Virus record (IMG/VR): IMGVR_UViG_3300046170_000391
Source of the DNA: a virus
Reading direction: 5' to 3' (one strand)
Length of the DNA: 64,000 nt
Shown: positions 37,633 through 61,231 of the stretch, piece by piece
Layout of the letters: each line of letters starts with the position of its first letter
How positions within the stretch are numbered: position 1 is the stretch's first letter
The notes under the pieces: generated by a model
Databases searched by the model: none
Seen by the model: only the letters and a program-made list of their open reading frames with translations
Told to the model about the DNA's origin: nothing
Translations under genes and position numbers: made by a program

Positions 37633-37717
37633 TGGCTGTGGAGGATGGAGTCGAACCATCACGCCTTTCGGCACACGAGAAACAGTCGTGCGTGTCTACC
37701 AGTTTCACCACCCCACA
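37633..37717 (-). tRNA. atypical type II tRNA, anticodon GTT (Asn) on a Leu-like body
   Basis: TGTGGGG TG GTGAAACTGGTAGACAC G CACGA CTGTTTC TCGTG T GCCGAAAGGC GT GATGG TTCGACT CCATC CTCCACA G CCA. Confidence 0.88.
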
Positions 37718-40200: not shown

Positions 40201-40324
40201 AAAATTTTTCCTTTTTAAATAAATTTCTGTACAAACCTGATTGATTGTAGTATTTAAATTTGTACACTTTTTAAAAATAAACAAGATTAATACACAACTC
40301 TACGTTTTACTTTTTTATTTTGTA

Positions 40325-41035
40325 TTAATCATAATTCTTTTTTACATGAGCATGATTTTTGTACCAATCTTCTCTATCTTTTTGCATTTCTGCACGTTTC
40401 TTCTTTGTTTTACGTAGCTCTTGTTTATCTAACCAAGTAACTTTAGAAGTCCAAGTATCTCTACGAACAGGTATAACCTGACATATAGGAGTGCCAGCAG
40501 GAATAATTACTTCCGGACCTCCTGCTTCTAGCATTGAATGGATAAAAGGTATATTTACTATATTATCAAAAGTATCAGTATCCACAAGCCCTGTAAGAGG
40601 AATAATAGGATTATCAAGCCTGTTTAGAGGAGGTAAAAATAGTAATGAGTAGTCTTTTGGGGTTTCAATTCGCCAAGGATTCATCCACTTGAGAACTGTA
40701 AATGATTCCATTGGAGATCCGGGTATCTGTCTCATAGGATGAGTCTCGATTGGGGGCCATTTAGAGATAAGTATTTTGTGCTTTTCATCAATGAAATCTA
40801 GCTTTAAAGACAAATCAGAAAGTTGTCTAATAACAATATCAACATGGTTGAGAAGCATATAACCAGCAGTCATTGCATCCAAAAACGGTACACATTTTTT
40901 AACTGTTTGGTCGCCATCATTCCAAGCTGGTGTTTTTTTAAACCAGTCTGGTACTGTGCGTTTAGTAGGAATTGGGGGAAGTACAATTTGATCAGGAAAA
41001 TCCTGCATTAAATGAAATTTGATTAGTTTTTTCAT
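40325..41035 (-). CDS. conserved phage protein (dUTPase-like fold, DUF6065-like)
   Basis: TVKKCVPFLDAMTAGY, PWRIETP, GLVDTD, IPAGTPICQVIP. Confidence 0.6.
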   Translation of the reverse strand: MKKLIKFHLMQDFPDQIVLPPIPTKRTVPDWFKKTPAWNDGDQTVKKCVPFLDAMTAGYMLLNHVDIVIRQLSDLSLKLDFIDEKHKILISKWPPIETHPMRQIPGSPMESFTVLKWMNPWRIETPKDYSLLFLPPLNRLDNPIIPLTGLVDTDTFDNIVNIPFIHSMLEAGGPEVIIPAGTPICQVIPVRRDTWTSKVTWLDKQELRKTKKKRAEMQKDREDWYKNHAHVKKNYD

Positions 41036-41193
41036 GCAGAAGCAACATTAGTTGGAGTAAAAAAAGTAGAAGGAACTTCCTCAGATGTAGTACCACAATC
41101 GCAAATATCACAACCACACGCACCGTTCTCGCAACAGTCCCACGCACAATGGCAGTTACATCCGCATTTCTTACAATTCTTCGTTTCGATCAT
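41032..41193 (-). CDS. 53-aa Cys-rich metallothionein-like peptide (not in ORF track)
   Basis: MIETKNCKKCGCNCHCAWDCCENGACGCDICDCG...; ATGA overlaps at both ends. Confidence 0.7.
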   Translation of the reverse strand: MIETKNCKKCGCNCHCAWDCCENGACGCDICDCGTTSEEVPSTFFTPTNVASA

Positions 41194-42278
41194 GCAGCTA
41201 AACTTTCGGGTAAATGAATTAGGGGATTAGAAGGATTAACACCTAAAAACTTGCCCCATTCTGCATAATAATGACGCATACCAACTTCGTCATGAATAGT
41301 CGAATTCTCATGTCTACCATGTAGTATGTTTCTTGATTCTGTTCCCTCACGCATCGTAGTACCCTGCCCAGCAACGCCAATAAGGTCTTCGTGTAGATTA
41401 CGACCAAAAGGACCCCAGATGGAGTTGTGATGTTTTATGCGTGTTTGTCTTTCTTCTGGTGTATCTTTTCTTAGTCCATATCCACGAAACTCAATAAGAA
41501 CTTTATTAGGACCAAGGGGTGTTACCGAGTCTGAACGATATGCGCTCCCACGGAGGTTAAAATTGAATCCTGGGAAGAGGTCAACCATGTACCACTGGTT
41601 GGGCGGCAGATTGGGAAAAGATAGTTCCCCGCGATCTTCAAATCCATCATACTCTTCATAGTTAACAGTAAAGCTGCTAACATTAACATGACCATTATCA
41701 AAAGGAATATTCTTTCTAGCGAAATACTCATCGTTAAATCCTGACACTCTGTTGAAATAATGCATAAAGTCATGATAGAACTCGCTGTTAGTATCATGCC
41801 ATAATTTATAATTAGTATCTATAATAGCTTTATGATAATGAAATACTTCCATTTCTTCAGTATCAATGGCATCTGCAATACAATCAAATGCACCTGCTGT
41901 CCATTCATCTACGCTTTGTGTAGGATTAGGATCAAGTGTTACCCAAACCATTCCACCATGTTTTACTTCACAGTGTAGTTGTGGTTCGACTGTTACGATT
42001 GGTGCAGCGACTGTACCAGATGGAGAATTAAATCCATGATTACAATATGCCTTAACACCGTCTTTGGTATTTACTGCAATCACATTCTGTCCAGCAATCT
42101 GTGTGGTTCTATAGTTGCCTTCATTGTACATCTCTGAGATATGACACATAGGAACCCAAACTTTACTAAAGATCATTTCTTGTTCTGCTAGATAAACATC
42201 GTGACTATTATAACAGTCACTACTAATATATTCAATTTTCGGTAATTTAGTCCAATTGTTATGGTTTCTTGGTGCCAT
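41190..42278 (-). CDS. ring-hydroxylating oxygenase alpha-subunit homolog with truncated Rieske domain
   Basis: EQEMIFSKVW, NYKLW..EFYHDFMH and EDL mononuclear Fe site; second CxxH absent; start revised to MAPRNH. Confidence 0.75.
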   Translation of the reverse strand: MAPRNHNNWTKLPKIEYISSDCYNSHDVYLAEQEMIFSKVWVPMCHISEMYNEGNYRTTQIAGQNVIAVNTKDGVKAYCNHGFNSPSGTVAAPIVTVEPQLHCEVKHGGMVWVTLDPNPTQSVDEWTAGAFDCIADAIDTEEMEVFHYHKAIIDTNYKLWHDTNSEFYHDFMHYFNRVSGFNDEYFARKNIPFDNGHVNVSSFTVNYEEYDGFEDRGELSFPNLPPNQWYMVDLFPGFNFNLRGSAYRSDSVTPLGPNKVLIEFRGYGLRKDTPEERQTRIKHHNSIWGPFGRNLHEDLIGVAGQGTTMREGTESRNILHGRHENSTIHDEVGMRHYYAEWGKFLGVNPSNPLIHLPESLAA

Positions 42279-42660
42279 CTTCGTTTCCTTCTTCCATTGC
42301 TGATTCATAATAAATTATGATTTCATTTTGTTGATCAATAAAACGTTTAATATCTGCTATGTTAAGTGCTAAATTTTCATAATCTTTTATAGCTAAAGCG
42401 ACATAAGCTAACTCACCATTTTCTTCTGTAAAATCTTTTACAAACTGGTCGTAGTTATCTTTATTAACCACATAAACTCTAGTATCAACTAGCTGGAGTG
42501 GTTTGGGCCTTGCTACTACTGGTACTGTTATTTTCTGAGTCTGAGTTACTACCTTGACTTCCTGTTCGGGGATCAGGCTGCAACCAGTTAGGAAGAGGCT
42601 TGCTATCACTACTGCCAGTGCTTTCCATGAAGTCTCTCCAAAGTTTAGCTGTTGCTCCAT
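42259..42660 (-). CDS. o-spanin (Rz1-like lipoprotein)
   Basis: Lipobox FLTGC; starts inside the i-spanin gene in another frame. Confidence 0.75.
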   Translation of the reverse strand: MEQQLNFGETSWKALAVVIASLFLTGCSLIPEQEVKVVTQTQKITVPVVARPKPLQLVDTRVYVVNKDNYDQFVKDFTEENGELAYVALAIKDYENLALNIADIKRFIDQQNEIIIYYESAMEEGNEDGTKKP

Positions 42661-42976
42661 TCATTCTACCTTCTAAATTTGCAGCATCTCTAAGAGCATC
42701 TGCAAGTAAATCTAATTCTCTGAGTTTTTGACGAAGATTATCTCCGTATGCTTCGGCCTTTTGCAAATCAGTCTGAAGCTGAATAGTCAGTTGTTGATTT
42801 AGCTCTGCTTGTTGAGTAAGTGTTGCAATACTTTGCTCACTGATCATAGCAGCTGTTTCTAATTTAGCATTATTTTCAGTTAAAATACTAATGCGAGTTT
42901 GCGTGATAGTATAATACCAATAGCCCATGCCTAATATCGCTATTAAAACGCCAATTAGAACCTTACTAAGCATCAA
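42485..42976 (-). CDS. i-spanin (Rz-like)
   Basis: N-terminal TM plus coiled coil; overlaps o-spanin. Confidence 0.72.
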   Translation of the reverse strand: MMLSKVLIGVLIAILGMGYWYYTITQTRISILTENNAKLETAAMISEQSIATLTQQAELNQQLTIQLQTDLQKAEAYGDNLRQKLRELDLLADALRDAANLEGRMNGATAKLWRDFMESTGSSDSKPLPNWLQPDPRTGSQGSNSDSENNSTSSSKAQTTPAS

Positions 42977-43318
42977 TTAGCCTTTTCTATGTTTCTGACC
43001 TTTTGGAGGCGACTTTTTAGATCCTGAAGGTCCAGCCCAATAGACTTTATTAGCCCAGTAAGCTGCTGACATTTTTCCTTTGGCGATGTTGCGGGCGTGG
43101 CGTGCTTTAAAAGATTTTCGTGCCTCTGGAGAGTAGTTATGCCCCATTGAAGAGTCTCCAAAATGTATGACTCGCACTTTATCTCCTTCTTTTGCCAAGA
43201 CCATGCCTTTTTTCTCTGCTCTGTCTGATCTTCGTGGTTTATTGAATCCATCAAATGTCTTCCCTCTATAATTGATTTTTCCGCTAGGAGTCCGTTTTAG
43301 TCCTGGAATCTTTGCCAT
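42977..43318 (-). CDS. small basic protein
   Basis: FNKPRR..VIHFGD..RKSFKARH..SAAYWA. Confidence 0.7.
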   Translation of the reverse strand: MAKIPGLKRTPSGKINYRGKTFDGFNKPRRSDRAEKKGMVLAKEGDKVRVIHFGDSSMGHNYSPEARKSFKARHARNIAKGKMSAAYWANKVYWAGPSGSKKSPPKGQKHRKG

Positions 43319-43576
43319 CTTTATATCTCTTTTCTATATCACATACAATTTGCCATTGACGATGTGTCAGTTGTGGGTACTTTGTTTGCGCATTTACACA
43401 ACCTAATATAAAGGATTTTTCAGCATCGGTCAACGACTGATTATCTAAAAAGTCCTTTAATGGTTTCTTAATTCTTCTTGTCATCGTTAGGTATATCATA
43501 TATGAAGGGATCTAATTTTATAATCTCTTTTTTCTTACGCTCAAACTCACGATTGAACTTCCATTCGTTGTATTTT

Positions 43577-44083
43577 TCAAGCAACCAGTTTAAGAACATG
43601 ACTATCTACCTCCGGGGTTACACATACAGTGACTCTAAAATCTTCACTTAAATTAAATATGCGGTGTTCTACACCGCTTTTTATTAAATAACTCATTCCT
43701 TGCTTATAAGTATATTTTCCGTCATCTTTAAATTCGATAAAGCTATTATCTGTTTTTATGGCTGCTATCATAGAAGAACTAAAAGTAACGGTGTCAGACT
43801 TATCTACATGCCAAGGTATACTACTTTTTGGGGCCAGAACAGAAAGATATAAAGTTTTGATGCCTCCTATCTTTAATGACTTTGACCATTTTTCGATACT
43901 CGGAAAATGTTTCATCATAGGCGATGTTTGAGAGTTATGTATGAGATCAAAAGATTTCCACTTTGGGTTGAAGTAACGTTCTGCAAATAAGTGATTTCCT
44001 AATTTATAGAAATACATCACCCGTTCAATATCAACACCTTCAAGTTTAGGTACTGGTATTTCTTTGCAGTTTGTCAAACTCAT
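43577..44083 (-). CDS. Asp/Asn beta-hydroxylase-like Fe(II)/2OG dioxygenase
   Basis: IPWHVD ... EHRIFN..R. Confidence 0.75.
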   Translation of the reverse strand: MSLTNCKEIPVPKLEGVDIERVMYFYKLGNHLFAERYFNPKWKSFDLIHNSQTSPMMKHFPSIEKWSKSLKIGGIKTLYLSVLAPKSSIPWHVDKSDTVTFSSSMIAAIKTDNSFIEFKDDGKYTYKQGMSYLIKSGVEHRIFNLSEDFRVTVCVTPEVDSHVLKLVA

Positions 44084-44741
44084 CTCTCCTGTTCTTTAAC
44101 AAAGGTAAAAAGGGAACAGCACTTTTTTCAAAAATAATCGGATCATCGTTTTCAACAGTCATAATAATTGCTATATCTTGAATTCCTGTACCATACATTT
44201 CATTATGTGCAACAGCGTATGCACAGCCTTGAATATAGTAGTCCGTAATTTGCTTTTGATTCTTTTTCTTTTTTGATGTTTTAAAATCAATAATTGTAGG
44301 CTTGCCTTTCCATATACCTACCATGTCTGTTCTTCCTGCATAGCGGTATTTATTAGACCATAGTACTTGTTCTTGTCCCCAAACTTCTTCAACACCTGTT
44401 TCAGTAGCTCTAATAAGATTAGCGGTCATAGATCTAACATCCAACTGTAATGTCTTGATTTCTTCCCAGACGTCTTCTCCGTTGAAGTGTCTTTCAGCAA
44501 GCTCATGAACAAGCGTGCCTCTATCCGTAGCAAGTTTAGAAATGCGTGCAGCTTCTTCTTCACCAACTTTATCCTTCCATCTTTGTAACCAAGTTTGATC
44601 TGATGTCTTACCTAGTATAGTTGTAATAGATGGGTAGGACCCATCAGGGGTATGATAAGTTCTACCAGTAGGTAATGTGTCTGTGTCTACTTCAGTTAGA
44701 TACTTGAACTTCTCTTTTGTAATCTTCCACTGTGTTAACAA
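44046..44741 (-). CDS. PD-(D/E)XK exonuclease
   Basis: YPSITTIL, RGTLVH, E..AGRTD, IIDFKTS, Q..AYA. Confidence 0.88.
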   Translation of the reverse strand: MLTQWKITKEKFKYLTEVDTDTLPTGRTYHTPDGSYPSITTILGKTSDQTWLQRWKDKVGEEEAARISKLATDRGTLVHELAERHFNGEDVWEEIKTLQLDVRSMTANLIRATETGVEEVWGQEQVLWSNKYRYAGRTDMVGIWKGKPTIIDFKTSKKKKNQKQITDYYIQGCAYAVAHNEMYGTGIQDIAIIMTVENDDPIIFEKSAVPFLPLLKNRRDEFDKLQRNTST

Positions 44742-46059
44742 TAGGTTTTCCTTTTGCGTTTAAACTCGTGTTTATCAGTATGGGGTATCCATATTGTCTG
44801 GTTATCTCTAGTACTTTCCAAATATAAGCATTTTTATTGCGACTAACTAGTTGAAGACGAGCTGATTTATCATGAGTAGTAAAATTACCTCCAATAATAT
44901 CAGCAACAAATAGCATATCATGACTAGGCTGATAAATCTTAAACCACGTATCAGCTTCTTCTTCTTGACAAATAGGGGCATAAGGCCTCCAGGAATCTGT
45001 ATCACGTTTCTTAATTTTGTTTAATTTTTTAATATTATCATTTGTAGGAATACAGAGCAAGCTACGATTACCTAATGCACGAGGCCCAAACTCAGCCTTT
45101 CCCTGTATAATAGGAACAATTTCTCCTTTTAGTAATCTTTCCGCCGCCTCATCTGTAGTGACATCATTAGTATCGGTTATCCCTAAATAAGCACTCTCCC
45201 ATAAAGGTCTACAAATTAATGCCGCTGCTCCTAAAGCACACCCTGCATCTCCTGCTGCAGGTTGTATCGCTACTGAATCAAATCCTGAGTGTTTTTTTAT
45301 TTTAGTATTAGCGACACAGTTTAATGCTACTCCTCCTGCATATGCTAAGTTTTTCATACCAGTTTCTTGTTGGAGCCACGTAGCCAACGCAAGAAGAACA
45401 TTTTCAGTAACTCTTTGAACTGAAGCAGCAACATCCCAATCTAAAATACCGTAACCAACACCACGTTCAAGGTTATGCAATAGAGTGTAATCTCCATCCG
45501 CATTCCAATCTATTATTTTTTGATTTATCCAAGGTAACCACTTCGGCTCTCCATGAGCAGCTGCTGCCATTACTTGAGACTCATCACAAAGAGGTTTAAG
45601 TCCCAAGAAACGAGTAGCACTAGAGTAAAATAAACCAATAGAGTTTGGATACATAAACCTTTTAATCCATTCAATTTTGCCATTTTGATAAACTCCTAAA
45701 GATGTTGAATATTTACCTCCTACGGTATCTACCACCATAACGGCACACTCATACCAATCAGTCAAAAGGACAGAGCTCATAGCATGTGCTTCATGATGAT
45801 CTACTAAAACAGGTTGAGCTTTAGTAATCTTTTTAATTTCTGATTTAAAATCGTTGTAAGTAGACTCTTCATAAAAAGCAGCAAACTCAAAGTCTTCATA
45901 TACATCTTGCAACCATTTTACTGTATTATGAGGGAAGGATTTATCATATTTTTTACGAGTAAAACGTTCCTCATGAGAAGCACCAACTATTGAAGTATCT
46001 TTTATAAATGCTGCAGCGCTATCGTGGTGATAACAGCTGACTCCTAGTATGTTCATCAA
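44692..46059 (-). CDS. carbamoyltransferase (NodU/CmcH family)
   Basis: HDSAAA, EERFTR, HHEAHA, GGVALN, EFGPRALGNRS, NTSLN. Confidence 0.92.
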   Translation of the reverse strand: MMNILGVSCYHHDSAAAFIKDTSIVGASHEERFTRKKYDKSFPHNTVKWLQDVYEDFEFAAFYEESTYNDFKSEIKKITKAQPVLVDHHEAHAMSSVLLTDWYECAVMVVDTVGGKYSTSLGVYQNGKIEWIKRFMYPNSIGLFYSSATRFLGLKPLCDESQVMAAAAHGEPKWLPWINQKIIDWNADGDYTLLHNLERGVGYGILDWDVAASVQRVTENVLLALATWLQQETGMKNLAYAGGVALNCVANTKIKKHSGFDSVAIQPAAGDAGCALGAAALICRPLWESAYLGITDTNDVTTDEAAERLLKGEIVPIIQGKAEFGPRALGNRSLLCIPTNDNIKKLNKIKKRDTDSWRPYAPICQEEEADTWFKIYQPSHDMLFVADIIGGNFTTHDKSARLQLVSRNKNAYIWKVLEITRQYGYPILINTSLNAKGKPIVNTVEDYKREVQVSN

Positions 46060-51813: not shown

Positions 51814-52866
51814 GTGCCTTTATCAATCCCCAGTATTCCCCATAAATCAAGAATGAAGGCTCATAAACTTCAATACTTAAGAGCCATATCTGATTCTATG
51901 GATTATCCTTTTCAATCTGAAGATGGAAGAGATCCTTCTGCCTCACATCAAGAATTAACAGAAACTTGTGTTGAATATACTGACATACCTTACTGGCAGT
52001 TTACAAACTGTTGTACTGACTCACTACAAATCGCTTTTTCAATGTTGTGCAAAGTAGGAGATACAGTCATCGTACCTGCTTATGGTTGGAGAGCGGTAAC
52101 AAATGCTCCACAGTTTGTAGGTTTAAATGTTATATATTGTGATATTGATGAGACAGGTAACGTTAGTATTTCAGAGTTGCATCGTCTAATATATGAAAAT
52201 CAACCTGCTGCAATACTAATAATTCACAATTTCGGCACGGTAGTAGACGTATCAGAATTAACAGGTATTTGTGAAAAGTACGGTGTTAAAATTATTGAAG
52301 ACGCTGCCCAAGCATTTGTAATGAAAGAACCCTATGACTATAAAATTGGTTCTTGCGCTGACATAGTATGTTTTTCTTTTGATTTTACTAAATCTCCTGG
52401 TACCTTAGGTGCTGGAGGGGCAATAGCTACTTATAATCCAGATCATTTTACAAAAATTAAATCAATTTGTTCTCATATCACTAATGAGTTGGGAATTGGG
52501 ACAAAATCGTATTTAGATACTACTGCAGCAGCAGTGCTCAATTGTGATATAAAACTTATAGAGCAAATGCAGTATAGACAGCGTAGAGTCGAAGTTGCTA
52601 CTTACTATATAAACAAACTTCCTTATGAAACTCTGAGCGGAAAAAATTATATCTTTCATCGTTTTATAATTTTACCTGATAAAAGTGAAAAACAAGATCT
52701 AATTAACAAACTAAAGTCACAAAAAATTCTAGCTAAACCTGTATATAAACCTAATACAGATGCTTGTACTTATGCAAATAGATTCTACGAGAGTGCAATT
52801 GAGCTCCCTTGTCATCAGTTTATTGATGTAAATGACTTAAATTCAAGAATTGAAAAAATATTATGA
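51814..52866 (+). CDS. DegT-family sugar aminotransferase
   Basis: GDTVIVPAY, IIEDAAQA, FSFDFTK, ELPCH. Confidence 0.88.
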   Translation: MPLSIPSIPHKSRMKAHKLQYLRAISDSMDYPFQSEDGRDPSASHQELTETCVEYTDIPYWQFTNCCTDSLQIAFSMLCKVGDTVIVPAYGWRAVTNAPQFVGLNVIYCDIDETGNVSISELHRLIYENQPAAILIIHNFGTVVDVSELTGICEKYGVKIIEDAAQAFVMKEPYDYKIGSCADIVCFSFDFTKSPGTLGAGGAIATYNPDHFTKIKSICSHITNELGIGTKSYLDTTAAAVLNCDIKLIEQMQYRQRRVEVATYYINKLPYETLSGKNYIFHRFIILPDKSEKQDLINKLKSQKILAKPVYKPNTDACTYANRFYESAIELPCHQFIDVNDLNSRIEKIL

Positions 52867-53795
52867 AGATACTAATAACAGGCGGAATGGGTTTTATTGG
52901 AGCACACTTAGTAGCAGAATTAGGACGCACTCATGACATAGATATTTTAGACGGTTTTGATGAAAACTACGTAGGCTACAAATATATACATAGAGGGACA
53001 AAAGGTTTACAAGAAACTAATGAGATTGAAAAACGTCATAGAAAACTAAATCTAAAGTATAGACTTGATTTAGTAAAAGGTAAATTCAATCAATACTATA
53101 GAAAATGGAGTTTTGAAGATATTCCAAGAGCAAATTATGATTTAGTACTTAACTTTGGGGCTTTATCAGAAGCTATCTTATCTCAACATTTTCCAAAATT
53201 TACTTCAGATTCTATAGTGCAAGGATTAAATCTAATTAAATTGTACCTTCCTAAGACACCTGTCTTACATATAAGTAGTAGCATGGTTTACGGCACTTGG
53301 GAAGGAGTAATTGACGAGCAGTACTCTTTAGGAGCTGTGGACCATTACGGGGACAGTAAAATAAAGGCAGAAACTATCTGCGGAGAGAATGACGTAATTT
53401 TGCGACCCATACATGTTTATGGTATGGGAGATGGTAAATTCTCAATCTGGATGAATATAGAAAGACAGATTGCAGCTGCAAAACCTGTTATGGTTGAGAG
53501 GGCAGGATGTATATACATAGACGATTTCGTTTTAGCAATCAAAAATATTTTAGACAGATGGCGTCCTGGCATTTATAATATTTCATACACATTCACTAGA
53601 AATGCTGAAGCATTAACTAATACTTATCCAGAAACTTTTGACGTTCAATATAAGTCAGGACCCACGGGTAAACCTAGAGGGCTGCTAGATAATAGCAAAC
53701 TAATAAATACATTTAATGTGAACTTTAAGTTTACAAATTATATAGATACTGTGAGAGACTATTATAGAACATATGAAAATTTTTGTAAGAAATAA
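52863..53795 (+). CDS. NAD-dependent epimerase/dehydratase
   Basis: GGMGFIG, SSSMVYG, YGDSK. Confidence 0.85.
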   Translation: MKILITGGMGFIGAHLVAELGRTHDIDILDGFDENYVGYKYIHRGTKGLQETNEIEKRHRKLNLKYRLDLVKGKFNQYYRKWSFEDIPRANYDLVLNFGALSEAILSQHFPKFTSDSIVQGLNLIKLYLPKTPVLHISSSMVYGTWEGVIDEQYSLGAVDHYGDSKIKAETICGENDVILRPIHVYGMGDGKFSIWMNIERQIAAAKPVMVERAGCIYIDDFVLAIKNILDRWRPGIYNISYTFTRNAEALTNTYPETFDVQYKSGPTGKPRGLLDNSKLINTFNVNFKFTNYIDTVRDYYRTYENFCKK

Positions 53796-54102
53796 TGATG
53801 TTGGAAAAGCACTTCGCATCTTAAAGAAAAAATTACACAATGAAGGTGTAATGAAAGAAGTAAGAGATAGACGTCATTTTATTTCAAAAGGCGAGCAAGA
53901 TCGTTTAGCTAAAAAAGCAGGGGTTAAACGTTGGCATAAAAAACGAGAAGAATTAGAGAAACAATTTATTCGTGAAGAACGAAATATGCTACGTAACAGC
54001 AGGAAAAATAAAAGAAATGTTCAAAGATCTAACAAAAGTTCAAATCAACAGCGAACGCAACGCTACTCTAGCGATAAGAATAAACGATCATCACGTTCAT
54101 AA
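53773..54102 (+). CDS. rpsU: ribosomal protein bS21 with basic C-terminal extension
   Basis: VRNNDVGKALRILKKKL..EG..KE.RDRRHFISKGE. Confidence 0.85.
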   Translation: MKIFVRNNDVGKALRILKKKLHNEGVMKEVRDRRHFISKGEQDRLAKKAGVKRWHKKREELEKQFIREERNMLRNSRKNKRNVQRSNKSSNQQRTQRYSSDKNKRSSRS

Positions 54103-54355
54103 TCTTGTGCTAAGTTTAGACAATTTTGCTTTCATTCTAAATAAGAATGTCAATTCATGGAAAGGTTTAATTCATAATAAAACATGGGAGTTCAGAAAAC
54201 TTTCTGATCGTGTTAAATTATATGATCAAAGCTATGAATATCATTACCGTTTCTCCCTTGAAGAATGGGAAACTATAAGACAACAATTTGCAGCAGCTTT
54301 ACTTGAAAGTAATCTTGCTAAGTAGTTATTTACTTTTCTATAATACCTTATAAAT

Positions 54356-54616
54356 ATGGAGGTTTATATGAAAGCATACAAAGGTACGTTTAAAAAGAAA
54401 AATGGTGAATCACGTGATATGGTTTTTGCTAGACTATATGATTTACCGCAAAAGTTTCTTGACGAAAAAGTACAAGGAGCAGGTTCTGAGCAAAAATATC
54501 CAGAAGGTATGGAACTCGTTTGGGATCTAGAAGCAGATAACTTTAGAATTTTTAATTGGAAATCTGTAGATAACGACCCGAAAGAATTTGATATTGACGA
54601 AACTCTTTTTAGATAA
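54356..54616 (+). CDS. hypothetical SH3/WYL-like domain protein
   Basis: FKKKNGESRDM ... VWDLEADNFRIF; GGAGG SD. Confidence 0.55.
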   Translation: MEVYMKAYKGTFKKKNGESRDMVFARLYDLPQKFLDEKVQGAGSEQKYPEGMELVWDLEADNFRIFNWKSVDNDPKEFDIDETLFR

Positions 54617-54864
54617 TGAACCTTTTATTCTTGTAGAAACAGAAATTGTAAATTTTAAAGAGCTTAAAGCAGGTAATATTAACTTAATGTACTACATTAT
54701 TGAAATACATAATACAGAAAATGATGAAATAGGAGTAGTGACAGAAGAGATAGATGGTGAACAGATTATCAAAAAATTTGATACCTGGTCTAAGGCAAAG
54801 GCTATGTCTGGAACACTAAATAGAGATACCCCTGAAAATCTCTCTACTCACATAGTAACCATTA

Positions 54865-55239
54865 ATGAAACTGCTACAAAAGATAAAGAAGTGGATAACG
54901 ATTGACCATTGTGTTGATCTTGTCGTTGATATATTGTTAATTGTATGGGAAGTTATCAGTAGTCCAATACTTATAGCTATGCGTCTTATAAGGCACTTTG
55001 TAGGTGAGTGGATAACAGATAAAATTAAAGCAGGAGTGCGTAAAATAGCACACTGGTTTGAGCATAAAAGAGAGTATAGATTAAAAAACGGATATGGAAT
55101 ATTTCGTACATATTGGTGGTTAATTATTTCAAGTCCTATAATTATATTTATCAGTATTTTTATTGTAGCTATACTGTCAGGATTACACGAAGGTTTAAAT
55201 ATAGCTTTCGAAGAAATTAGTGCTTCGTTTGAGGAGTAG
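54865..55239 (+). CDS. hypothetical membrane protein
   Basis: Two hydrophobic segments. Confidence 0.55.
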   Translation: MKLLQKIKKWITIDHCVDLVVDILLIVWEVISSPILIAMRLIRHFVGEWITDKIKAGVRKIAHWFEHKREYRLKNGYGIFRTYWWLIISSPIIIFISIFIVAILSGLHEGLNIAFEEISASFEE

Positions 55240-55245
55240 TATAAT

Positions 55246-55714
55246 AGACGGACTGGACTCGGGGGCAGTACCCGACGGCTCCACCATAAACACAGGAATA
55301 ACACATGAAAGAATATATGTTAATAATCAGCATGTGGGGAAGTGATGGAAGCACAGAGCATTACATTGGTCAGATGGTTTTACAACAACCAATGAGTAAA
55401 TCTCAGTGTGAGTGGATGATTGAGGATGAACAGTGGGGTGCAAGTTTTGATAATGAGTATTACTTCTTTGCTAGACACTGTATGCCGAAAGATTGTGCTG
55501 GAAAAGATTCCTGTGACTAAACACTATTGGTGTGTTTATGATGGGGCCGAAATAGGATCGACAGACGTAATAAAAACAATGCCGAGAAGCAGGTGCGCAA
55601 GCGACCTCAACCGCAAGAAAACAAACAATTGCAAATGATAATTTCGCAATCGAGGACTACCGCATAGCGGCATAGTCTCACGGGGTATGGCTCCACCTAG
55701 CAACAGAACGGGCC
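55246..55714 (+). ncRNA. ssrA: permuted two-piece tmRNA (acceptor piece ~55250-55286; coding piece 55543-~55714)
   Basis: T-arm TCGGG-GGCAGTA-CCCGA and CGGCTCC-A-CCA pair with GGGGCCG (G3.U70); GGATCGAC; tag ANDNFAIEDYRIAA* at 55631-55675; CACCTAGCAACAGAA 3' element. Confidence 0.92.
55305..55520 (+). CDS. 71-aa protein inside the tmRNA intervening segment
   Basis: AGGA SD, full ORF, resembles small Cys proteins at 12720 and 13532; flanked by TAAACAC direct repeats. Confidence 0.75.
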   Translation: MKEYMLIISMWGSDGSTEHYIGQMVLQQPMSKSQCEWMIEDEQWGASFDNEYYFFARHCMPKDCAGKDSCD

Positions 55715-55737
55715 TTTACAACTCTTATGAGGATTAA

Positions 55738-56880
55738 ATGTTTAATTTTAATACAACTCCACGTTTAGTAATCGGCGCAAATAGATTACAGTTCTTAGGC
55801 ACACTTCTTTCCGACCTTGGAATCAAAAACCCTTTAATAGTGACAGGTCCTAATCTTGCAAAATCTAAAATCATAACTGAGACACAAAAATGGTCTTGGA
55901 CTGATAATGTATTCTGTGATTTAGTACAGGATCCAACGACTCAGAATGTGTTAGACTGTGTTGAATATGGAATAAGTAAAGACGTAGATGGAGTTATTGG
56001 TATCGGGGGTGGATCATCTCTTGATGTAGCAAAAGTTGCTTCTGTGTTATTAAAACAGGAAACATCTTTAGAAAACATTTGGGGTGTAGACAATGTTTAT
56101 AGTTCAAGACTACCTTTAATTCTTATACCTACCACCTCGGGGTCAGGATCAGAAGTTACCCCAGTTTCAATTATTACAACAGGTGAGACAACAAAAATGG
56201 GAATTGTTTCTCACAGAATCATTCCAGATGCAGCAATTCTTGACCCTCTTCTTACAGTTTCTTGTAACCCTCAACTAACTGCATATAGCGCAATAGATGC
56301 GATGGTTCATGCTATCGAATCATACACTTCTATAAATCCCAATAACAATCCTTACTCAAAAATGCTTGCACTTGAAGCTTGTCGCTGGTTAGGTAAATCA
56401 ACAAAAACTGCCATCTTAGAGCCAAGTAATATCGAAGCAAGAGCTAATGTACAATATGGATCTATGTTGGCCGGGCAGGCATTTGGTAATTCGCCAGTAG
56501 CAGCAGTTCATGCATTAGCCTACCCACTAGGTGGGTACTTTAAACTGCCACATGGTTTAACAAATACTTTGGTTCTTCCTGGTGTTTTAGAGTATAATCA
56601 AGAAAATACAGACTATTCAACTCTTGCTACTGCTTTATTTCCTCATGATGAAGGAGAAATATACTACTATAAAGGTGATGTTGTTGAAGTAATGTGCAGA
56701 AATATCAAAGAATTAGCAGAGTTAGCAGGAATCGAAACTCGAATGAGTGATTATGGAATCAGTGCAGAGCATATTCCAATGTTAGCAGAAGAGGCAATGA
56801 AACAATCTAGGCTCTTGGTAAATAATCCGAGAGAAATTACAGAAGAAGTTGCAAAAGAAATTTACTGGGAAGTTCTATAA
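55738..56880 (+). CDS. iron-containing alcohol dehydrogenase
   Basis: GIGGGSSLDVAK, PTTSGSGSE, DAMVHAIE, HALAY, HG. Confidence 0.93.
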   Translation: MFNFNTTPRLVIGANRLQFLGTLLSDLGIKNPLIVTGPNLAKSKIITETQKWSWTDNVFCDLVQDPTTQNVLDCVEYGISKDVDGVIGIGGGSSLDVAKVASVLLKQETSLENIWGVDNVYSSRLPLILIPTTSGSGSEVTPVSIITTGETTKMGIVSHRIIPDAAILDPLLTVSCNPQLTAYSAIDAMVHAIESYTSINPNNNPYSKMLALEACRWLGKSTKTAILEPSNIEARANVQYGSMLAGQAFGNSPVAAVHALAYPLGGYFKLPHGLTNTLVLPGVLEYNQENTDYSTLATALFPHDEGEIYYYKGDVVEVMCRNIKELAELAGIETRMSDYGISAEHIPMLAEEAMKQSRLLVNNPREITEEVAKEIYWEVL

Positions 56881-57509
56881 TGTATAAAACTTATATTCTA
56901 GGGAATGGCGGATACGCTCAAGAATGCTTTGAACAATTTGTACTAGGCAGAGTTATAGAAGATTTCGGGGGATTTATTATCCTAAAAGAAGGTAAAGCAG
57001 TTCTTATTAACGATGAAGGTATAAATAATTTTACTTACCCTAAAGAATCTGCATTTATGCTAGGGACTGGGCACCGTAAGTGGCGTAAAGTATTTTTAGA
57101 TCATTTATTTGGTTATTATGAACAGAATATTAATCATTTTCCAAATATGATAGCTAATGAAGCACACTTATCACAAACTTCTACTCTAGGTATAGGTAAT
57201 GTACTTAATTGCTTTGCTATGACAAATGCTAATGCTAATATCGGAGATTTTAATCTTTTAAACTGTTATGCATCAGTTCATCATGACGTAACGATGGGAA
57301 GTCACAATATATTTACAACGTATGCTACCGTGCTAGGGTATTGTACAGTAGGAGATGATAACTGGTTTGGTAATGCAGTTACAGTAACATCAAAAACAAA
57401 TATCGGTAATGATAATACACTTAGTTCTGGCGAACATCTTTTTGAAGATATGAGCACTCGTCAATTCTTTAAACACGGTATTGTTACAGAGAAACCTATA
57501 AAACAATGA
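56880..57509 (+). CDS. NeuD/PglD-like hexapeptide acetyltransferase
   Basis: GNGGYA, LbetaH repeats, VHHD. Confidence 0.82.
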   Translation: MYKTYILGNGGYAQECFEQFVLGRVIEDFGGFIILKEGKAVLINDEGINNFTYPKESAFMLGTGHRKWRKVFLDHLFGYYEQNINHFPNMIANEAHLSQTSTLGIGNVLNCFAMTNANANIGDFNLLNCYASVHHDVTMGSHNIFTTYATVLGYCTVGDDNWFGNAVTVTSKTNIGNDNTLSSGEHLFEDMSTRQFFKHGIVTEKPIKQ

Positions 57510-58276
57510 TTATTTTTTTTAGAAGCTGTGAAGCAAACTTAAAAGCTGGATCTCTTGGAGACGAAGTTACGGGTGATGGTATTCGCTGGAATGGTAAACA
57601 TAAATTAGAAATTATTCGTAAATGTTATCTTTCAATTCAATCTAGCTTAGATGAGCGTGATTTAATCGTAGTAATTGATGATAGAACGACTAAAGATACC
57701 CTTAACTGGATGAGAGACAACACTAAAGCCCAATTTAGGGTACACCCCATTACCCCCTTACCTGAACTAAGAGCAAAAGATCCTTATCCTAATTATCATC
57801 CTGTTATGGCTAATTCATGTCCAGAAATCATGGAACATTTAGTGAGTGTTTCAGAAGAAAATCCTGATGAAATTATATACATCTGTGAGGACGATTATCT
57901 TCATCTACCTCAAGCAATACTTGCAATGAAAGCTTTATTTGGTCAAGGATATAGTGGGTTTTATGCCCCACAAGATTATCCTGATAGATATACCTTAGAC
58001 TCTAGTAGGGTATGTGAAGTACATGTGGGGCCTTATGGGCATCTAAGATCAATTCCAAGCTCAACACTTACTATCGCAGCAAAGGGCACTACTTGGCTTC
58101 AGTATAAGTATGAAATACTCAGAGCAGGAGCTTTTGCAGATGATACATGGACTTGGAAAGCTTTTAAACAAGTTGGCTGTCTATGTCCCCTACCAGGCCA
58201 CTCTACTCACCTACAAGAAGGGTGTATTAGCCCTTGTATAAACTGGGAACAAGTATATGAAGGCATTAGTTTATAA
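57506..58276 (+). CDS. GT-A fold glycosyltransferase-like protein
   Basis: IDD, YICEDDYLH, DYPDRY, STH. Confidence 0.65.
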   Translation: MIIFFRSCEANLKAGSLGDEVTGDGIRWNGKHKLEIIRKCYLSIQSSLDERDLIVVIDDRTTKDTLNWMRDNTKAQFRVHPITPLPELRAKDPYPNYHPVMANSCPEIMEHLVSVSEENPDEIIYICEDDYLHLPQAILAMKALFGQGYSGFYAPQDYPDRYTLDSSRVCEVHVGPYGHLRSIPSSTLTIAAKGTTWLQYKYEILRAGAFADDTWTWKAFKQVGCLCPLPGHSTHLQEGCISPCINWEQVYEGISL

Positions 58277-58279
58277 TAT

Positions 58280-59260
58280 ATGAAATTTATACTTAGAAAA
58301 GACATAAAAATAGATCTTTTTGAGAGGCATCTTAGAAAGGCTAGAGCAAGTAATCAATTTTCTAATTACGGAGCTGCGGTACAAGACCTAGAATTAAAAG
58401 CTCGTGAAATGCTTAAAATTGATGATTCAAAAGCTATAATAGCTGTGAATAACGGCTCTTCATGTGTTACTACTATAGTATACGCTTTTCAGAGGGCTTT
58501 TGGTAATCATCTTAACGTGCTCACTCAAGATTTTACATTTCCCTCTAATGCACAAATCGGGGCAAGCGGCGCTCAAAAAACAGATTTTACAGACGCTTTA
58601 GATATACATTTGGACTTTCCTTATTGGGATCAAATAAAAATAGTAATTGTAACTAACATATTTGGTCACTTGCAAGACTTAAACATGATAATTAATAAAT
58701 GTAATGATTCAGATAAACTATTAATATTTGATAACGCGGCCACTCCATATTCTTTTTATGAAGGAACTAATTCGTGTAATTTAGGAACAGCTTCTTATAT
58801 TTCTCTTCACCATACTAAGCCTCTTGGTTTCGGAGAAGGAGGGTTAGTAATAATCAATAAAGAATACGAGAAAGAGGCTAGGGCAGTTATAAATTTCGGT
58901 CCGACCGAGGGCAATGAGTTTAATGAAAGAGGTAGCAATTTTAAAATGAGTGAGATTGCGGCAGCGGGAATTCTTCAGTGGTGGGATCAATTCGATATTG
59001 AAGACCTAAAAGAAAAATTCCTTAATAATTACTTTAAGAAACGTTATGAGTTAGCAAATCAAAAAGGTATTTTTTATCCAAATAAAGGAGATGATAACTT
59101 TTTTCCTTCATGTTTACCTTTTATCCACGATAATCCTACAGAAGCAAACAAAGACAATGAAGAATTTAAGTATTATAAGCCCTTAGTGGGTTTGCAAAAT
59201 TCTAAACTTGTGTATGAAAACATTATCTGTTATGGGCTAACTGAGGATTGGTATGTATAA
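58280..59260 (+). CDS. DegT-family sugar aminotransferase
   Basis: FSNYG, FTFPS, DNAA, SLHHTKPLGFGEGG, NFKMSE. Confidence 0.85.
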   Translation: MKFILRKDIKIDLFERHLRKARASNQFSNYGAAVQDLELKAREMLKIDDSKAIIAVNNGSSCVTTIVYAFQRAFGNHLNVLTQDFTFPSNAQIGASGAQKTDFTDALDIHLDFPYWDQIKIVIVTNIFGHLQDLNMIINKCNDSDKLLIFDNAATPYSFYEGTNSCNLGTASYISLHHTKPLGFGEGGLVIINKEYEKEARAVINFGPTEGNEFNERGSNFKMSEIAAAGILQWWDQFDIEDLKEKFLNNYFKKRYELANQKGIFYPNKGDDNFFPSCLPFIHDNPTEANKDNEEFKYYKPLVGLQNSKLVYENIICYGLTEDWYV

Positions 59261-60230
59261 TAAATCAGCAGTAGTTACTGGATGTCTTAGCTTTATTGGG
59301 GTAGCGTTGACCGAAAAATTACTTCGCGAAGATTGGCAAGTATATGGTATAGATAAATTAACTTATGTAGCTAACACTAAATTAATTTCGTATTTTAAAA
59401 CAACTTACAAAGATAACTTTACTTTGGTCTCGGAAGATATTAAAGATGTTAAATGGCTACCTGCTTGTGATGTAGTTTTTAATATTGCAGCAGAATCAGA
59501 TGTTGATAATGGTAATAAAGATTGTTCTCAGTTTATTAGTTCAAATATTGAGGGTGTACGAAACTTACTAAGTCTTATTAATTCAAGAATTATTACTAAA
59601 GCAGATAAACCTTTATTTTTTCAAATGTCTACAGATGAAGTTTATGGAGATCTTGAAGAAGGAGTTTTTGACGAAAATGCACCTCTTAGACCATCTAATC
59701 CTTATGCCGCTACAAAAGCAAGTGCTGACCTACTTATCCAAAGCTGGGCACGTACTCACGGGTTAGAGTACCTTATAGCTAGACCTTCAAATAACTACGG
59801 ATACTATCAGTATCCAGAAAAATTAATTCCTTTAGCAGTAAAACAGTTATCAAGGGGTAAGAAAATAAAACTTCACAATGAAGGAAAACCTATTAGAAGT
59901 TGGACGCACTCAGAAGATACAGCAGAAGCAATCCTAACATTATATGACAACGCTGATAGAAATAAAGTTTATAATATTTCATCAGAATATGAGCAAACAA
60001 ATCTCGATACTGTTAAAAAAATCATAAACTCTTACTTTTTAGGAACTATAAGTAGAGAGGTGCCCAATTATACTAGTCATATAGATCTGGAGTACTCAAG
60101 GCCAGGGCAAGACGTGAGATATGCAATTTCTTGTAATCCTTTAAAAGAATTACAATGGAGACCTAAAAAAGAATTTAATCAAGAGATAGTAAAGTTAGTG
60201 GAAAATTATAAGAAAGGATGGACATGGTAA
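59253..60230 (+). CDS. rmlB: dTDP-glucose 4,6-dehydratase
   Basis: DKLTY, AAESDVD, STDEVYG, YAATKAS, NNYG.YQYPEKLIP, RPGQDVRYA. Confidence 0.9.
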   Translation: MYNKSAVVTGCLSFIGVALTEKLLREDWQVYGIDKLTYVANTKLISYFKTTYKDNFTLVSEDIKDVKWLPACDVVFNIAAESDVDNGNKDCSQFISSNIEGVRNLLSLINSRIITKADKPLFFQMSTDEVYGDLEEGVFDENAPLRPSNPYAATKASADLLIQSWARTHGLEYLIARPSNNYGYYQYPEKLIPLAVKQLSRGKKIKLHNEGKPIRSWTHSEDTAEAILTLYDNADRNKVYNISSEYEQTNLDTVKKIINSYFLGTISREVPNYTSHIDLEYSRPGQDVRYAISCNPLKELQWRPKKEFNQEIVKLVENYKKGWTW

Positions 60231-61231
60231 TGAGAGTATTTATTACAGGGATAGGAGGATTACTAGGTAGTAACTTAGCTAATTTCTTAATTGGACAAGG
60301 GCATGAAGTAGCGGGTATAGATAATATGATAGGGGGAGTAGATGATAATATTCCTATCGGGGCTAAATTTCATGAAGGTGATATTACAGACACAAAGTTG
60401 ATGAAAGAGATAACTGAAGGGTATGAAGTAATTTTTCATGCAGCTGCTCTCCCATACGAGGGTTTGAGTGTTTTCTCCCCAGCAGTGACAGTAAATTCAA
60501 TTGTTTCGGGAACTGTGTCAGTAGCTTCGGCAGCTCTGCACAACAAAGTAAGATTATTAATAAACTGCTCTTCTATGGCTCGATACGGAGATCAAATACC
60601 CCCGTTTACAGAAGATATGCCTACTAAGCCTGTTGATCCTTATGGACTTGCTAAAGTACAGGCTGAAGAACATTTAGAAATGTTGAGTAATATACATGGA
60701 CTAAACTATATTACTGTAGTTCCTCATAATGTTATTGGGGTAGGTCAAAGATATTATGACCCTTTTAGAAATGTGATGGGAATTATGATTAGTCGCTGCT
60801 TACAGGGTAAACCTTTAGTGATTTATGGGGATGGAGAACAACAAAGATCATTTTCTAATGTAAGTGATTGTATAAAAGCTGTTTATCAAATAATGATAAC
60901 AGATAGAGATATTTGTGGACAAGTTTATAATATCGGGCCAGATGATAATGAGATATCTATTAAACAACTTGCGTATAAAGTAGGACATCATTGCGAGAAA
61001 TACCCGTCTTTAGAGCATTACCCAGATAGGCCCCAAGAAGTAAAAAATGCTTTTTGTTCTTCAGATAAGATAAGAAAAGACTTTAACTATAATGCAGCAG
61101 TTAAATTAGACACTACTATAATTGATATGGTTTCGTGGATTAAACCACGACTCCGTGAGTTTGAGTATCATCTAGAATTAGAATTTATTACAGATAAAAC
61201 ACCTAAAACATGGACAGATAAGTTGATATAA
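60218..61231 (+). CDS. NAD-dependent nucleotide-sugar epimerase
   Basis: GIGGLLG, SSMARYG, YGLAK, YGDGEQQRSF. Confidence 0.88.
   Translation: MDMVMRVFITGIGGLLGSNLANFLIGQGHEVAGIDNMIGGVDDNIPIGAKFHEGDITDTKLMKEITEGYEVIFHAAALPYEGLSVFSPAVTVNSIVSGTVSVASAALHNKVRLLINCSSMARYGDQIPPFTEDMPTKPVDPYGLAKVQAEEHLEMLSNIHGLNYITVVPHNVIGVGQRYYDPFRNVMGIMISRCLQGKPLVIYGDGEQQRSFSNVSDCIKAVYQIMITDRDICGQVYNIGPDDNEISIKQLAYKVGHHCEKYPSLEHYPDRPQEVKNAFCSSDKIRKDFNYNAAVKLDTTIIDMVSWIKPRLREFEYHLELEFITDKTPKTWTDKLI

What the first reader, a model, noticed from the sequence alone, without database searches (positions are those of the whole stretch)
55287..55542. Protein-coding gene nested in the excised intervening segment of a permuted tmRNA
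Seen: 256 nt separate the acceptor-piece CCA (55284-55286) from the coding-piece 5' end (55543). They contain an AGGA SD and a complete 71-aa ORF (55305-55520). TAAACAC is directly repeated at 55287-55293 and 55518-55524, and the second copy supplies the stop codon. Removing one copy plus the insert restores a 25-nt hairpin spacer TAAACACTATTGGTGTGTTTATGAT. CATAAACACA (55285-55294) is the exact reverse complement of TGTGTTTATG (55531-55540), so the tRNA-like domain can still close with the gene looped out, while the local hairpin competes for the same strand. Known: alphaproteobacterial tmRNA spacers are usually short and are removed by RNase P and 3' trimming. Inference: tmRNA maturation would release a mini-mRNA, tying this protein to tmRNA output. 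The spacer may act as a neutral cargo-insertion site or a folding switch.
Basis: partly seen in the sequence, partly recalled or inferred. Interest (0 to 1): 0.85.

Follow-up and report, generated by a model that had tools for sequence, protein, structure and literature searches.

The report
Protein gene inside phage tmRNA spacer
A marine phage's two-piece ribosome-rescue RNA (tmRNA) gene carries a real, conserved 71-codon protein gene in the spacer that is cut out when the RNA matures, and closely related phages have that same spacer empty or filled with a different small gene, so a supposedly throw-away stretch of a stable RNA serves as an exchangeable slot for genes.

Summary
Two Rfam models find a complete alpha-type permuted tmRNA at 55171-55717, with about 240 nt inserted in the inter-piece loop. 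The 71-aa ORF (55305-55520) is a real gene. It belongs to a family of small phage proteins with 292 hits in IMG/VR, and dN is 0.1-0.55 while dS is saturated.

Three syntenic phages share nearly identical mature tmRNA pieces. Their spacers are 256 nt with this gene, 111 nt with an unrelated 34-codon ORF, and an empty 25-nt hairpin.

In a sample of phage contigs, all 18 distinct spacers of 150 nt or more hold a same-strand ORF. In 107 cellular alphaproteobacterial genomes no spacer exceeds 83 nt. The helix that closes the spacer covaries and is kept around the cargo, which argues for one precursor transcript.

The family is mostly free-standing, and it entered a tmRNA spacer at least twice.

Release of a translatable mini-mRNA and a folding switch remain untested. 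The protein's function is unknown.

I found no description of protein genes in tmRNA spacers in the papers I could search. This scan has noted the same theme before on other DNA.

The parts
54865..55239 (+). Upstream gene for a 124-aa membrane-like protein. Its last 18 nt, including the stop at 55237-55239, overlap the 5' end of the tmRNA acceptor piece.
   Evidence: ORF list. Homologs at 49-99% identity lie directly upstream of a tmRNA in L217-L219. In L218 and L219 the gene stops before the tmRNA.
55222..55286 (+). tmRNA acceptor piece: the 5' strand of the inter-piece helices, the T-arm, the acceptor 3' strand CGGCTCC (55276-55282) and the encoded ACCA (55283-55286).
   Evidence: RF04321 and RF01849 alignments. 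The sequence is 100% identical in L217. The acceptor stem changes on both sides in L218 and L219.
55287..55542 (+). Intervening segment (spacer) of 256 nt, absent from the mature tmRNA.
   Evidence: It is an insert relative to both covariance models. The syntenic relatives have 111 nt (L218) and 25 nt (L219) here.
55287..55294 (+). 5' strand of the closing helix (TAAACACA). It pairs with 55531-55538.
   Evidence: Inverted repeat I1, 25 nt and 84% complementary, runs through the acceptor stem. The helix covaries across 99 spacers: 86% paired in register against 35-59% when slid.
55294..55297 (+). Shine-Dalgarno AGGA, 7 nt before the ATG. It lies in the 9-bp helix 55291-55299 / 55507-55515.
   Evidence: The fold of the precursor and of the excised spacer both include this helix.
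55305..55520 (+). Cargo gene: a 71-aa small alpha/beta protein with four cysteines (C35, C59, C64, C70). It belongs to a phage-only family with no Pfam or PHROG match.
   Evidence: AlphaFold2 gives mean pLDDT 89.
55518..55538 (+). Second TAAACAC copy, loop TATTGGT and GTGTTTA. This local hairpin looks like the short spacer of empty alleles and competes with the long-range helix.
   Evidence: Repeats D3 and I4. The hairpin forms in the fold of the excised spacer. It is the only such case among 42 long spacers.
55543..55717 (+). tmRNA coding piece, starting with the acceptor 5' strand GGGGCCG. The tag reading frame at 55631-55675 encodes ANDNFAIEDYRIAA followed by a stop.
55738..56880 (+). Downstream gene for an iron-containing alcohol dehydrogenase. 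No terminator-like site lies between it and the tmRNA.
   Evidence: Pfam PF00465 and PF25137. Terminator scan. The synteny is kept in L218 and L219.

Best explanation
The window, from a large uncultured marine phage, holds a working alpha-type two-piece tmRNA gene. Its intervening segment has taken up a free-standing small phage gene. The segment is removed from the precursor by RNase P at the 5' end of the coding piece and by trimming at the CCA end of the acceptor piece, and the two pieces are never rejoined. Anything placed between the ends of the closing helix therefore leaves the mature RNA untouched, while being transcribed on the same strand together with the tmRNA. The spacer is thus a permissive, well-transcribed slot. 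In this phage lineage it is empty, or holds one small gene, or another. Here it holds a 71-codon gene with its own ribosome-binding site, which is translated from the precursor, from a longer operon transcript, or from the excised piece. Shown here: the gene is real, the tmRNA is intact, the slot is variable, the arrangement is specific to phages in the samples examined, the closing helix is conserved, and the family was captured at least twice. Inferred: co-transcription, translation in this position, and the processing sites.
For: The tmRNA is complete. Its acceptor stem changes on both sides among relatives and the tag frame is intact.

The ORF is under purifying selection: dN is 0.11-0.55 with dS saturated or above 1, and 26 columns are invariant. 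There are 292 relatives in IMG/VR and 45 clusters at 50% identity. The predicted fold is confident.

Syntenic relatives with the same flanking genes and nearly identical mature pieces have a 256-nt spacer with this gene (window, L217), a 111-nt spacer with an unrelated 34-codon ORF (L218), or an empty 25-nt hairpin (L219).

In the census of phage contigs, all 18 distinct spacers of 150 nt or more have a same-strand ORF covering at least 60% of the spacer, against 3 on the opposite strand. At least ten unrelated cargo families are present. Rfam confirms the tmRNA in the 15 such loci tested. In cellular alphaproteobacteria, 107 spacers have a median of 30 nt and a maximum of 83 nt.

The closing helix covaries, and long spacers keep 8.0 of 10 pairs against 6.6 +/- 0.26 with shuffled partners.

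The family is mostly free-standing. The window's copy is sister to free-standing P0001 (SH-aLRT 96), and an AU test rejects one clade for the two spacer-borne copies (p 0.015).

The cargo-bearing allele occurs in a second genome that is 75-92% identical in the flanks but 99.5-100% identical across 54663-55717, so it is not an assembly artefact.

Processing of permuted tmRNA from a single precursor is established for cellular forms, as stated in PMC9004378 and PMC11915505.
Against: No convincing promoter was found close to the acceptor piece: the best candidate, at 55148-55175, matches 9 of 12 positions, and promoter-like sites were no more frequent than in shuffles. After capture there is only one near-identical second copy, with a single synonymous change, so selection on the gene in this position cannot be measured. 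The SD lies in a 9-bp helix, which could limit translation. In 13 of 120 cellular loci my strict pattern found no acceptor piece, so a few long cellular spacers could have been missed.
Confidence: 0.7

Rival explanations
1. Processing-coupled expression. Maturation of the tmRNA releases the 256-nt spacer as a mini-mRNA with paired ends. The choice between the long-range helix, the 9-bp helix that hides the SD and the local 3' hairpin acts as a switch. The small protein would then be made in step with tmRNA output.
For: The SD lies in or next to the closing helix here and in many other cargo spacers, for example TAAGGAG paired through G-U pairs with the 3' strand. Competing helices I1, I2 and I4 exist. 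The excised spacer folds with the local 3' hairpin, which could protect its 3' end. The closing helix is kept around cargo.
Against: Nothing here requires a switch. The closing helix is also present in empty spacers, so it is explained by precursor folding alone. The fold energies are not unusual (z -1.6 and -1.8). The tmRNA seems to be embedded in an operon without its own terminator, so the ORF can be translated like any cistron. An excised RNA with a 5' monophosphate would normally be short-lived (general knowledge).
Confidence: 0.17
2. Silent passenger. The gene was inserted recently into a tolerant site and is carried along, but it is not expressed to any useful level in this position.
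For: The insertion footprint (second TAAACAC copy and retained hairpin) suggests a recent event. Only near-identical copies of this allele are known. The SD is sequestered.
Against: The ORF is intact, with an SD at correct spacing. The only difference from the second genome is synonymous. The same family sits intact in another tmRNA spacer (L021) after an independent capture. All 18 long phage spacers hold intact same-strand ORFs, which neutral decay would not maintain.
Confidence: 0.08
3. Two separately transcribed genes. A promoter inside the spacer or the ORF drives the coding piece, so the spacer is an ordinary intergenic region that holds a gene and there is no common precursor.
For: Weak promoter-like matches lie inside the spacer, at 55427-55454 and 55513-55542 (both 9 of 12).
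Against: These matches are no more frequent than in shuffles. The second uses the conserved TATGAT that ends 1 nt before the mature 5' G, so transcription would start inside the mature sequence. Relatives with 24-25-nt spacers cannot hold a promoter. The ends of the spacer covary as a helix, which needs both on one RNA.
Confidence: 0.05

Closest known systems
Circularly permuted (two-piece) tmRNA genes of Alphaproteobacteria and of aquatic phages such as OM43 phage Melnitz and the pelagimyophages (Rfam RF01849, RF04321; PMC9004378, PMC11915505)
   Same: The gene order is acceptor piece, intervening segment, coding piece. The CCA is encoded, the G-U pair is at position 3 of the acceptor stem, and the tag has the alpha-type ANDN... 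start and AA end. The locus scores above both gathering thresholds.
   Different: Described spacers are short and non-coding. In my sample of 107 cellular genes the median is 30 nt and the maximum 83 nt. Here the spacer is 256 nt and holds a conserved protein gene. The papers I read mention only a tRNA-Ala gene and a repetitive element as unusual spacer contents (PMC11915505).
tmRNA genes interrupted by group I introns, some with homing endonuclease genes (PMC11915505)
   Same: A protein-coding ORF sits in a part of a tmRNA gene that is absent from the mature RNA.
   Different: Introns lie in the T-loop, splice themselves out and the exons are rejoined, and their ORFs are selfish nucleases. 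Here the segment lies between the two pieces and is removed by ordinary end-processing without rejoining. The cargo has no nuclease or mobility domain.
Intervening sequences of bacterial 23S rRNA that carry an ORF (S23p type; Leptospira, Coxiella).
   Same: A stable RNA precursor loses an internal segment without religation, the mature RNA stays in pieces held by base pairing, and the excised segment can hold a small ORF.
   Different: The RNA differs, excision there is by RNase III, and a single conserved ORF family is involved. Here many unrelated small genes are exchanged between phages.
Phage 'moron' genes and small genes embedded in tRNA or stable-RNA operons (general knowledge)
   Same: Small accessory genes are inserted between functional units and expressed from a neighbour's transcription. 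Their content varies among otherwise syntenic phages.
   Different: The insertion point is inside a single RNA gene, between two halves that must still pair with each other.

Membership tests
Permuted two-piece tmRNA, alpha type (RF01849 / RF04321) | Covariance-model score above the curated gathering score, full-length match | tested here: met
   RF01849 scores 110.7 bits (gathering score 50) over model positions 1-355. RF04321 scores 95 bits (gathering score 47) over positions 1-213.
Permuted two-piece tmRNA, alpha type (RF01849 / RF04321) | Permuted order: the acceptor piece ending in an encoded CCA lies upstream of the coding piece, whose 5' end completes the acceptor stem with a G-U at position 3 | tested here: met
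   CGGCTCC-ACCA at 55276-55286 pairs with GGGGCCG at 55543-55549. The stem changes on both sides in L218 (CGCCTCC/GGGGGCG) and L219 (CATCTCC/GGGGATG).
Permuted two-piece tmRNA, alpha type (RF01849 / RF04321) | Tag reading frame with an alanine resume codon, ending in hydrophobic residues before a stop | tested here: met
   The frame at 55631-55675 encodes ANDNFAIEDYRIAA and a stop.
Permuted two-piece tmRNA, alpha type (RF01849 / RF04321) | Transcribed as one precursor and cut into two pieces by tRNA-processing enzymes | not testable with these tools
   Only indirect support is available: the closing helix of the spacer covaries and relatives have 24-25-nt spacers.
Small phage protein family of the cargo gene (no Pfam or PHROG name) | Significant sequence similarity over the full length, with the conserved SMWG...YIG...QC...W...N..Y...C pattern | tested here: met
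   E-values are 1.6e-36 to 7e-28 to P0001-P0003. The profile search finds 45 clusters. Invariant columns are listed.
Transposable element or homing-endonuclease cargo | The insert encodes a transposase, integrase or homing nuclease, or has terminal inverted repeats of its own | tested here: not met
   The only ORF has no Pfam or PHROG match. No repeat in the spacer has the form of element termini; the inverted repeats found are the tmRNA closing helix (I1), the 9-bp SD helix (I2), a local hairpin at 55518-55538 (I4) and a 7-bp hairpin inside the ORF (I5). A 7-nt direct duplication is present but could equally come from illegitimate recombination.
Known protein folds (PDB) | A structural match well above background | tested here: inconclusive
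   The best Foldseek E-value is 0.11. The best VIA-align Z is 4.5, to 8g9s_A, below the tool's stated noise level.

The most novel reading that the evidence does not exclude
The intervening segment of phage two-piece tmRNA genes is a dedicated expression platform. Host tRNA-processing enzymes carve a small mRNA with paired ends out of the ssrA precursor. The closing helix, which often contains the ribosome-binding site, makes translation depend on processing or on unfolding. Phages exchange small genes through this slot as cassettes. A stable-RNA gene would then double as a promoter-and-processing vehicle for accessory proteins.
Probability: 0.2. Interest if true: 0.85.

Novelty: new variant of a known kind. 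Interest (0 to 1): 0.68.

Why it matters
Two-piece tmRNA genes have been treated as pure RNA genes with a disposable linker. This locus and its relatives show that in aquatic phages the linker repeatedly holds real protein genes, and that these are exchanged between otherwise syntenic genomes.

Three consequences follow:
- Annotation pipelines will miss both the small genes and the tmRNA. ARAGORN fails on this lineage.
- The natural series of empty, cargo A and cargo B alleles, all with identical mature RNA, gives a direct way to test how much an RNase P substrate tolerates in its leader. It also allows a test of whether an excised leader can be translated.
- The slot is a new place to look for small phage proteins expressed with the translation-rescue machinery, some of which may act on the host.

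Tried and rejected
- ARAGORN found no tmRNA in the window or in L217-L219, L021 and L227, although it finds some cargo-bearing ones. Its failure is therefore not explained by spacer length alone.
- Nucleotide search of the region against 50,697 deposited phage genomes gave only short tmRNA hits in Rhodobacterales phages and weak alcohol dehydrogenase hits. A 628-aa window protein had no match there. No named relative of the phage could be given.
- The cargo protein has no Pfam or PHROG match. Foldseek against the PDB gave nothing at E <= 0.001. VIA-align wide gave a best Z of 4.5, in the noise. The ESM Atlas gave only viral hypothetical clusters, with DUF1482 at 0.80, a level often reached by chance. 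I assign no function.
- A transposon-like origin was considered because of the 7-nt duplication. I rejected it as a classification because no mobility gene or element termini are present.
- I considered that TAAACAC x2 is a plain target-site duplication. The first copy is the lineage's normal closing-helix strand, so recombination with another tmRNA allele is equally possible.
- The exact 'restored' empty spacer was sought in IMG/VR with a pattern. There was one hit (L227), with a 32-nt hairpin spacer of the same type but a different loop. The precise ancestral allele was not found.
- Literature searches on two-piece or permuted tmRNA, intervening sequence, ORF and pelagimyophage found no paper describing protein genes in the spacer. 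The library covers open-access papers only.

Full report
**What is there.** Two Rfam covariance models find a full-length alpha-type circularly permuted tmRNA on the + strand. RF01849 scores 110.7 bits at 55171-55717 and RF04321 scores 95 bits at 55222-55675. Both alignments place a long insert in the loop between the acceptor piece and the coding piece. ARAGORN does not report it.

The acceptor piece ends with CGGCTCC-ACCA at 55276-55286. The coding piece starts with GGGGCCG at 55543, which gives the acceptor stem its G-U pair at position 3. The tag frame at 55631-55675 reads ANDNFAIEDYRIAA followed by a stop.

Every coordinate in the finding is correct:
- The spacer is 256 nt.
- AGGA lies 7 nt before the ATG.
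- The 71-aa ORF is at 55305-55520.
- The 7-nt direct repeat TAAACAC occurs twice, and the second copy supplies the stop codon.
- The 10-nt complementarity joins the two spacer ends.

The repeat finder adds three things. The long-range complementarity runs for 25 nt (84%) through the acceptor stem. A perfect 9-bp helix, CACAGGAAT (55291-55299) with ATTCCTGTG (55507-55515), covers the ribosome-binding site. The second TAAACAC forms a local hairpin with GTGTTTA.

**Context.** No whole genome is held for the window. The window carries a tRNA cluster, a phage-type ribosomal protein S21 gene and many sugar-modifying genes with PHROG matches. Near-identical or related stretches lie on IMG/VR viral contigs of up to 203 kb. 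I read it as part of a large uncultured marine phage. No deposited phage genome is close.

**Is the ORF a gene?** An ORF this long arises in 0.4% of shuffles of the spacer. Homologs exist at 63-77% identity. There are 292 tblastn-confirmed relatives in IMG/VR and 45 clusters at 50% identity in the exhaustive profile search, all small stand-alone proteins.

Across five members dN is 0.11-0.55 while dS is saturated or above 1, and 26 columns are invariant, including four cysteines. AlphaFold2 gives a confident strand-strand-helix-strand fold with mean pLDDT 89.

There is no Pfam, PHROG, PDB or Atlas match that says what the protein does. The gene is real and its function is unknown.

**The decisive comparison.** I used the upstream 124-aa protein to fetch syntenic relatives. 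This gave three kinds of allele with the same gene order: membrane protein, tmRNA, iron alcohol dehydrogenase, hexapeptide transferase.
- L217 has the same 256-nt spacer and gene.
- L218 has a 111-nt spacer with an unrelated 34-codon hydrophobic ORF, which ends at a TAG 12 nt inside the coding piece.
- L219 has a 25-nt hairpin and no ORF.

In the three-way alignment the mature pieces are nearly invariant, the acceptor stem changes on both sides, and the spacers cannot be aligned.

**A second genome.** L217 is a different genome, not the same assembly. Against the window it is 74.9% identical in the dehydrogenase gene, 86.2% in the transferase gene and 92.5% further upstream. It is 99.5-100% identical from 54663 to 55717, and the single spacer difference is a synonymous CCG to CCA change. 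The module of membrane-protein gene plus cargo-bearing tmRNA has therefore moved recently between diverged phages. The arrangement is not an assembly artefact.

Spacer lengths run from 3 to 499 nt.

All 18 distinct spacers of 150 nt or more have a same-strand ORF covering at least 60% of the spacer, against 3 on the opposite strand. At least ten unrelated cargo families appear, several of them short hydrophobic peptides. Rfam confirmed a complete permuted tmRNA in all 15 such loci I submitted.

The same pattern in one genome per prokaryote species returned 120 alphaproteobacterial loci. The 107 spacers I could measure have a median of 30 nt and a maximum of 83 nt, and none holds a gene. In these samples the cargo is specific to phages. 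Two caveats apply. In 13 cellular loci my strict acceptor pattern found nothing.

**One transcript?** Across 99 distinct spacers, the first ten bases pair with the ten bases that precede the last four. In that register 86% of cells are paired, against 35-59% in slid registers, and several positions show three or more Watson-Crick pair types. Spacers of 120 nt or more keep 8.0 of 10 pairs, against 6.6 +/- 0.26 when 5' and 3' ends are shuffled among loci.

A helix between the two ends needs both on one RNA. Relatives with 24-25-nt spacers leave no room for a second promoter, and L196 has a canonical promoter only in front of the acceptor piece. Cellular permuted tmRNAs are made from one precursor by tRNA-processing enzymes (PMC9004378, PMC11915505). 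Co-transcription here is well supported but inferred.

In the window the upstream gene's stop codon lies inside the acceptor piece. No terminator-like site was found on the + strand across 53500-56500, which includes the tmRNA and the start of the dehydrogenase gene, and promoter-like sites are no more frequent than chance. The tmRNA is therefore probably cut out of a longer operon transcript.

**Origin of the cargo.** The family is mostly free-standing. P0001-P0003 and P0009 lie in tight arrays of small genes with no tmRNA. Of 96 family loci, only the window's own allele is inside a spacer. Seven others have the gene 1.1-1.3 kb upstream of a tmRNA: its spacer is 24-29 nt in five of them, about 97 nt in L203 and about 202 nt in L191.

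A second spacer-borne copy (L021, 266-nt spacer) is only 44% identical to the window's. In the tree the window's copy is sister to free-standing P0001 (SH-aLRT 96). L021's groups with free-standing P0009, and an AU test rejects a single clade of the two spacer copies (p 0.015). The family entered a tmRNA spacer at least twice.

**Insertion footprint.** TAAACAC is the usual 5' strand of the closing helix in this lineage, in empty and in filled spacers. Only the second copy is odd. It arises next to the 3' strand in 0.05% of shuffles and is unique among 42 long spacers. With the loop and the 3' strand it looks like the short hairpin of empty alleles such as L227.

This fits insertion of the gene into a formerly short spacer, either with a 7-nt duplication or by recombination with another tmRNA allele. 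No mobility gene is present.

**What is not shown.** No RNA or protein data could be obtained. The fold energies of the precursor and of the excised spacer are not unusual. Release of a translatable mini-mRNA, coupling of protein output to tmRNA output, and a folding switch therefore remain hypotheses.

**Comparison with what is known.** Phage-borne two-piece tmRNAs are described for Melnitz and the pelagimyophages (PMC9004378). The 2025 tmRNA database paper lists a tRNA gene and a repetitive element as unusual spacer contents and does not mention ORFs (PMC11915505). Four full-text searches found no description of protein genes in the spacer.

Earlier notes of this scan report the same theme on other DNA. 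I used them as leads only and tested the slot idea on my own loci.

I class the finding as a new variant of a known kind. The locus is a full member of the permuted tmRNA family, and the new element is the use of its spacer as an exchangeable slot for protein genes.

Noticed in passing
window 54663-55717 against L217: Sharp mosaic. [quoted passage not shown] The genes on either side are only 75-92% identical. This points to recent recombinational exchange of the module.
   Followed up: partly
window 55222-55239: The upstream 124-aa gene reads 18 nt into the tmRNA acceptor piece before its stop. In L218 and L219 the homolog stops just before the tmRNA. There is no room for a promoter between the gene and the tmRNA.
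   Followed up: partly
window 55289-55309: Near-tandem 11-nt repeat, AACACAGGAA then AACACATGAA. Other spacers start TAAACAC-ATG directly (L037, L026). A small duplication may have created the AGGA ribosome-binding site here.
   Followed up: no
L074, L096, L012, L079, L014, L078, L076, L218, L221: Two families of 34-36-codon ORFs sit in 108-118-nt spacers and use the TAG inside the conserved GAAATAGGATCGAC of the mature coding piece as their stop. Translation would therefore run through the acceptor stem.
   Followed up: partly
L191, L196, L197, L201, L202, L203, L215: In seven phage contigs the free-standing homolog of the cargo gene lies 1.1-1.3 kb upstream of a tmRNA, whose spacer is 24-29 nt in five of them and longer in L203 and L191. 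The gene family and the tmRNA share a neighbourhood even when they are not nested.
   Followed up: partly
window 53773-54102: Phage-encoded ribosomal protein S21 (PF01165, phrog_21469) with a long basic C-terminal extension, 109 aa in all.
   Followed up: no
window 37633-37717: ARAGORN calls an 85-nt tRNA-Asn here, but the Rfam tRNA model does not reach its gathering score. It may be a false call or an unusual tRNA.
   Followed up: no
window 1-64000, for example 38666-46059 and 51814-61231: The window has an unusually dense set of sugar-modifying genes: several DegT-type aminotransferases, nucleotide-sugar epimerases, a carbamoyltransferase, radical SAM enzymes and a hexapeptide transferase. 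It also has a UV-damage endonuclease homolog.
   Followed up: no
window 55171-55717; L217, L218, L219, L021, L227: ARAGORN misses the tmRNA of this lineage even when the spacer is only 25 nt (L219), whereas Rfam RF01849 and RF04321 find all of them. Surveys of phage tmRNAs based on ARAGORN will undercount them.
   Followed up: partly
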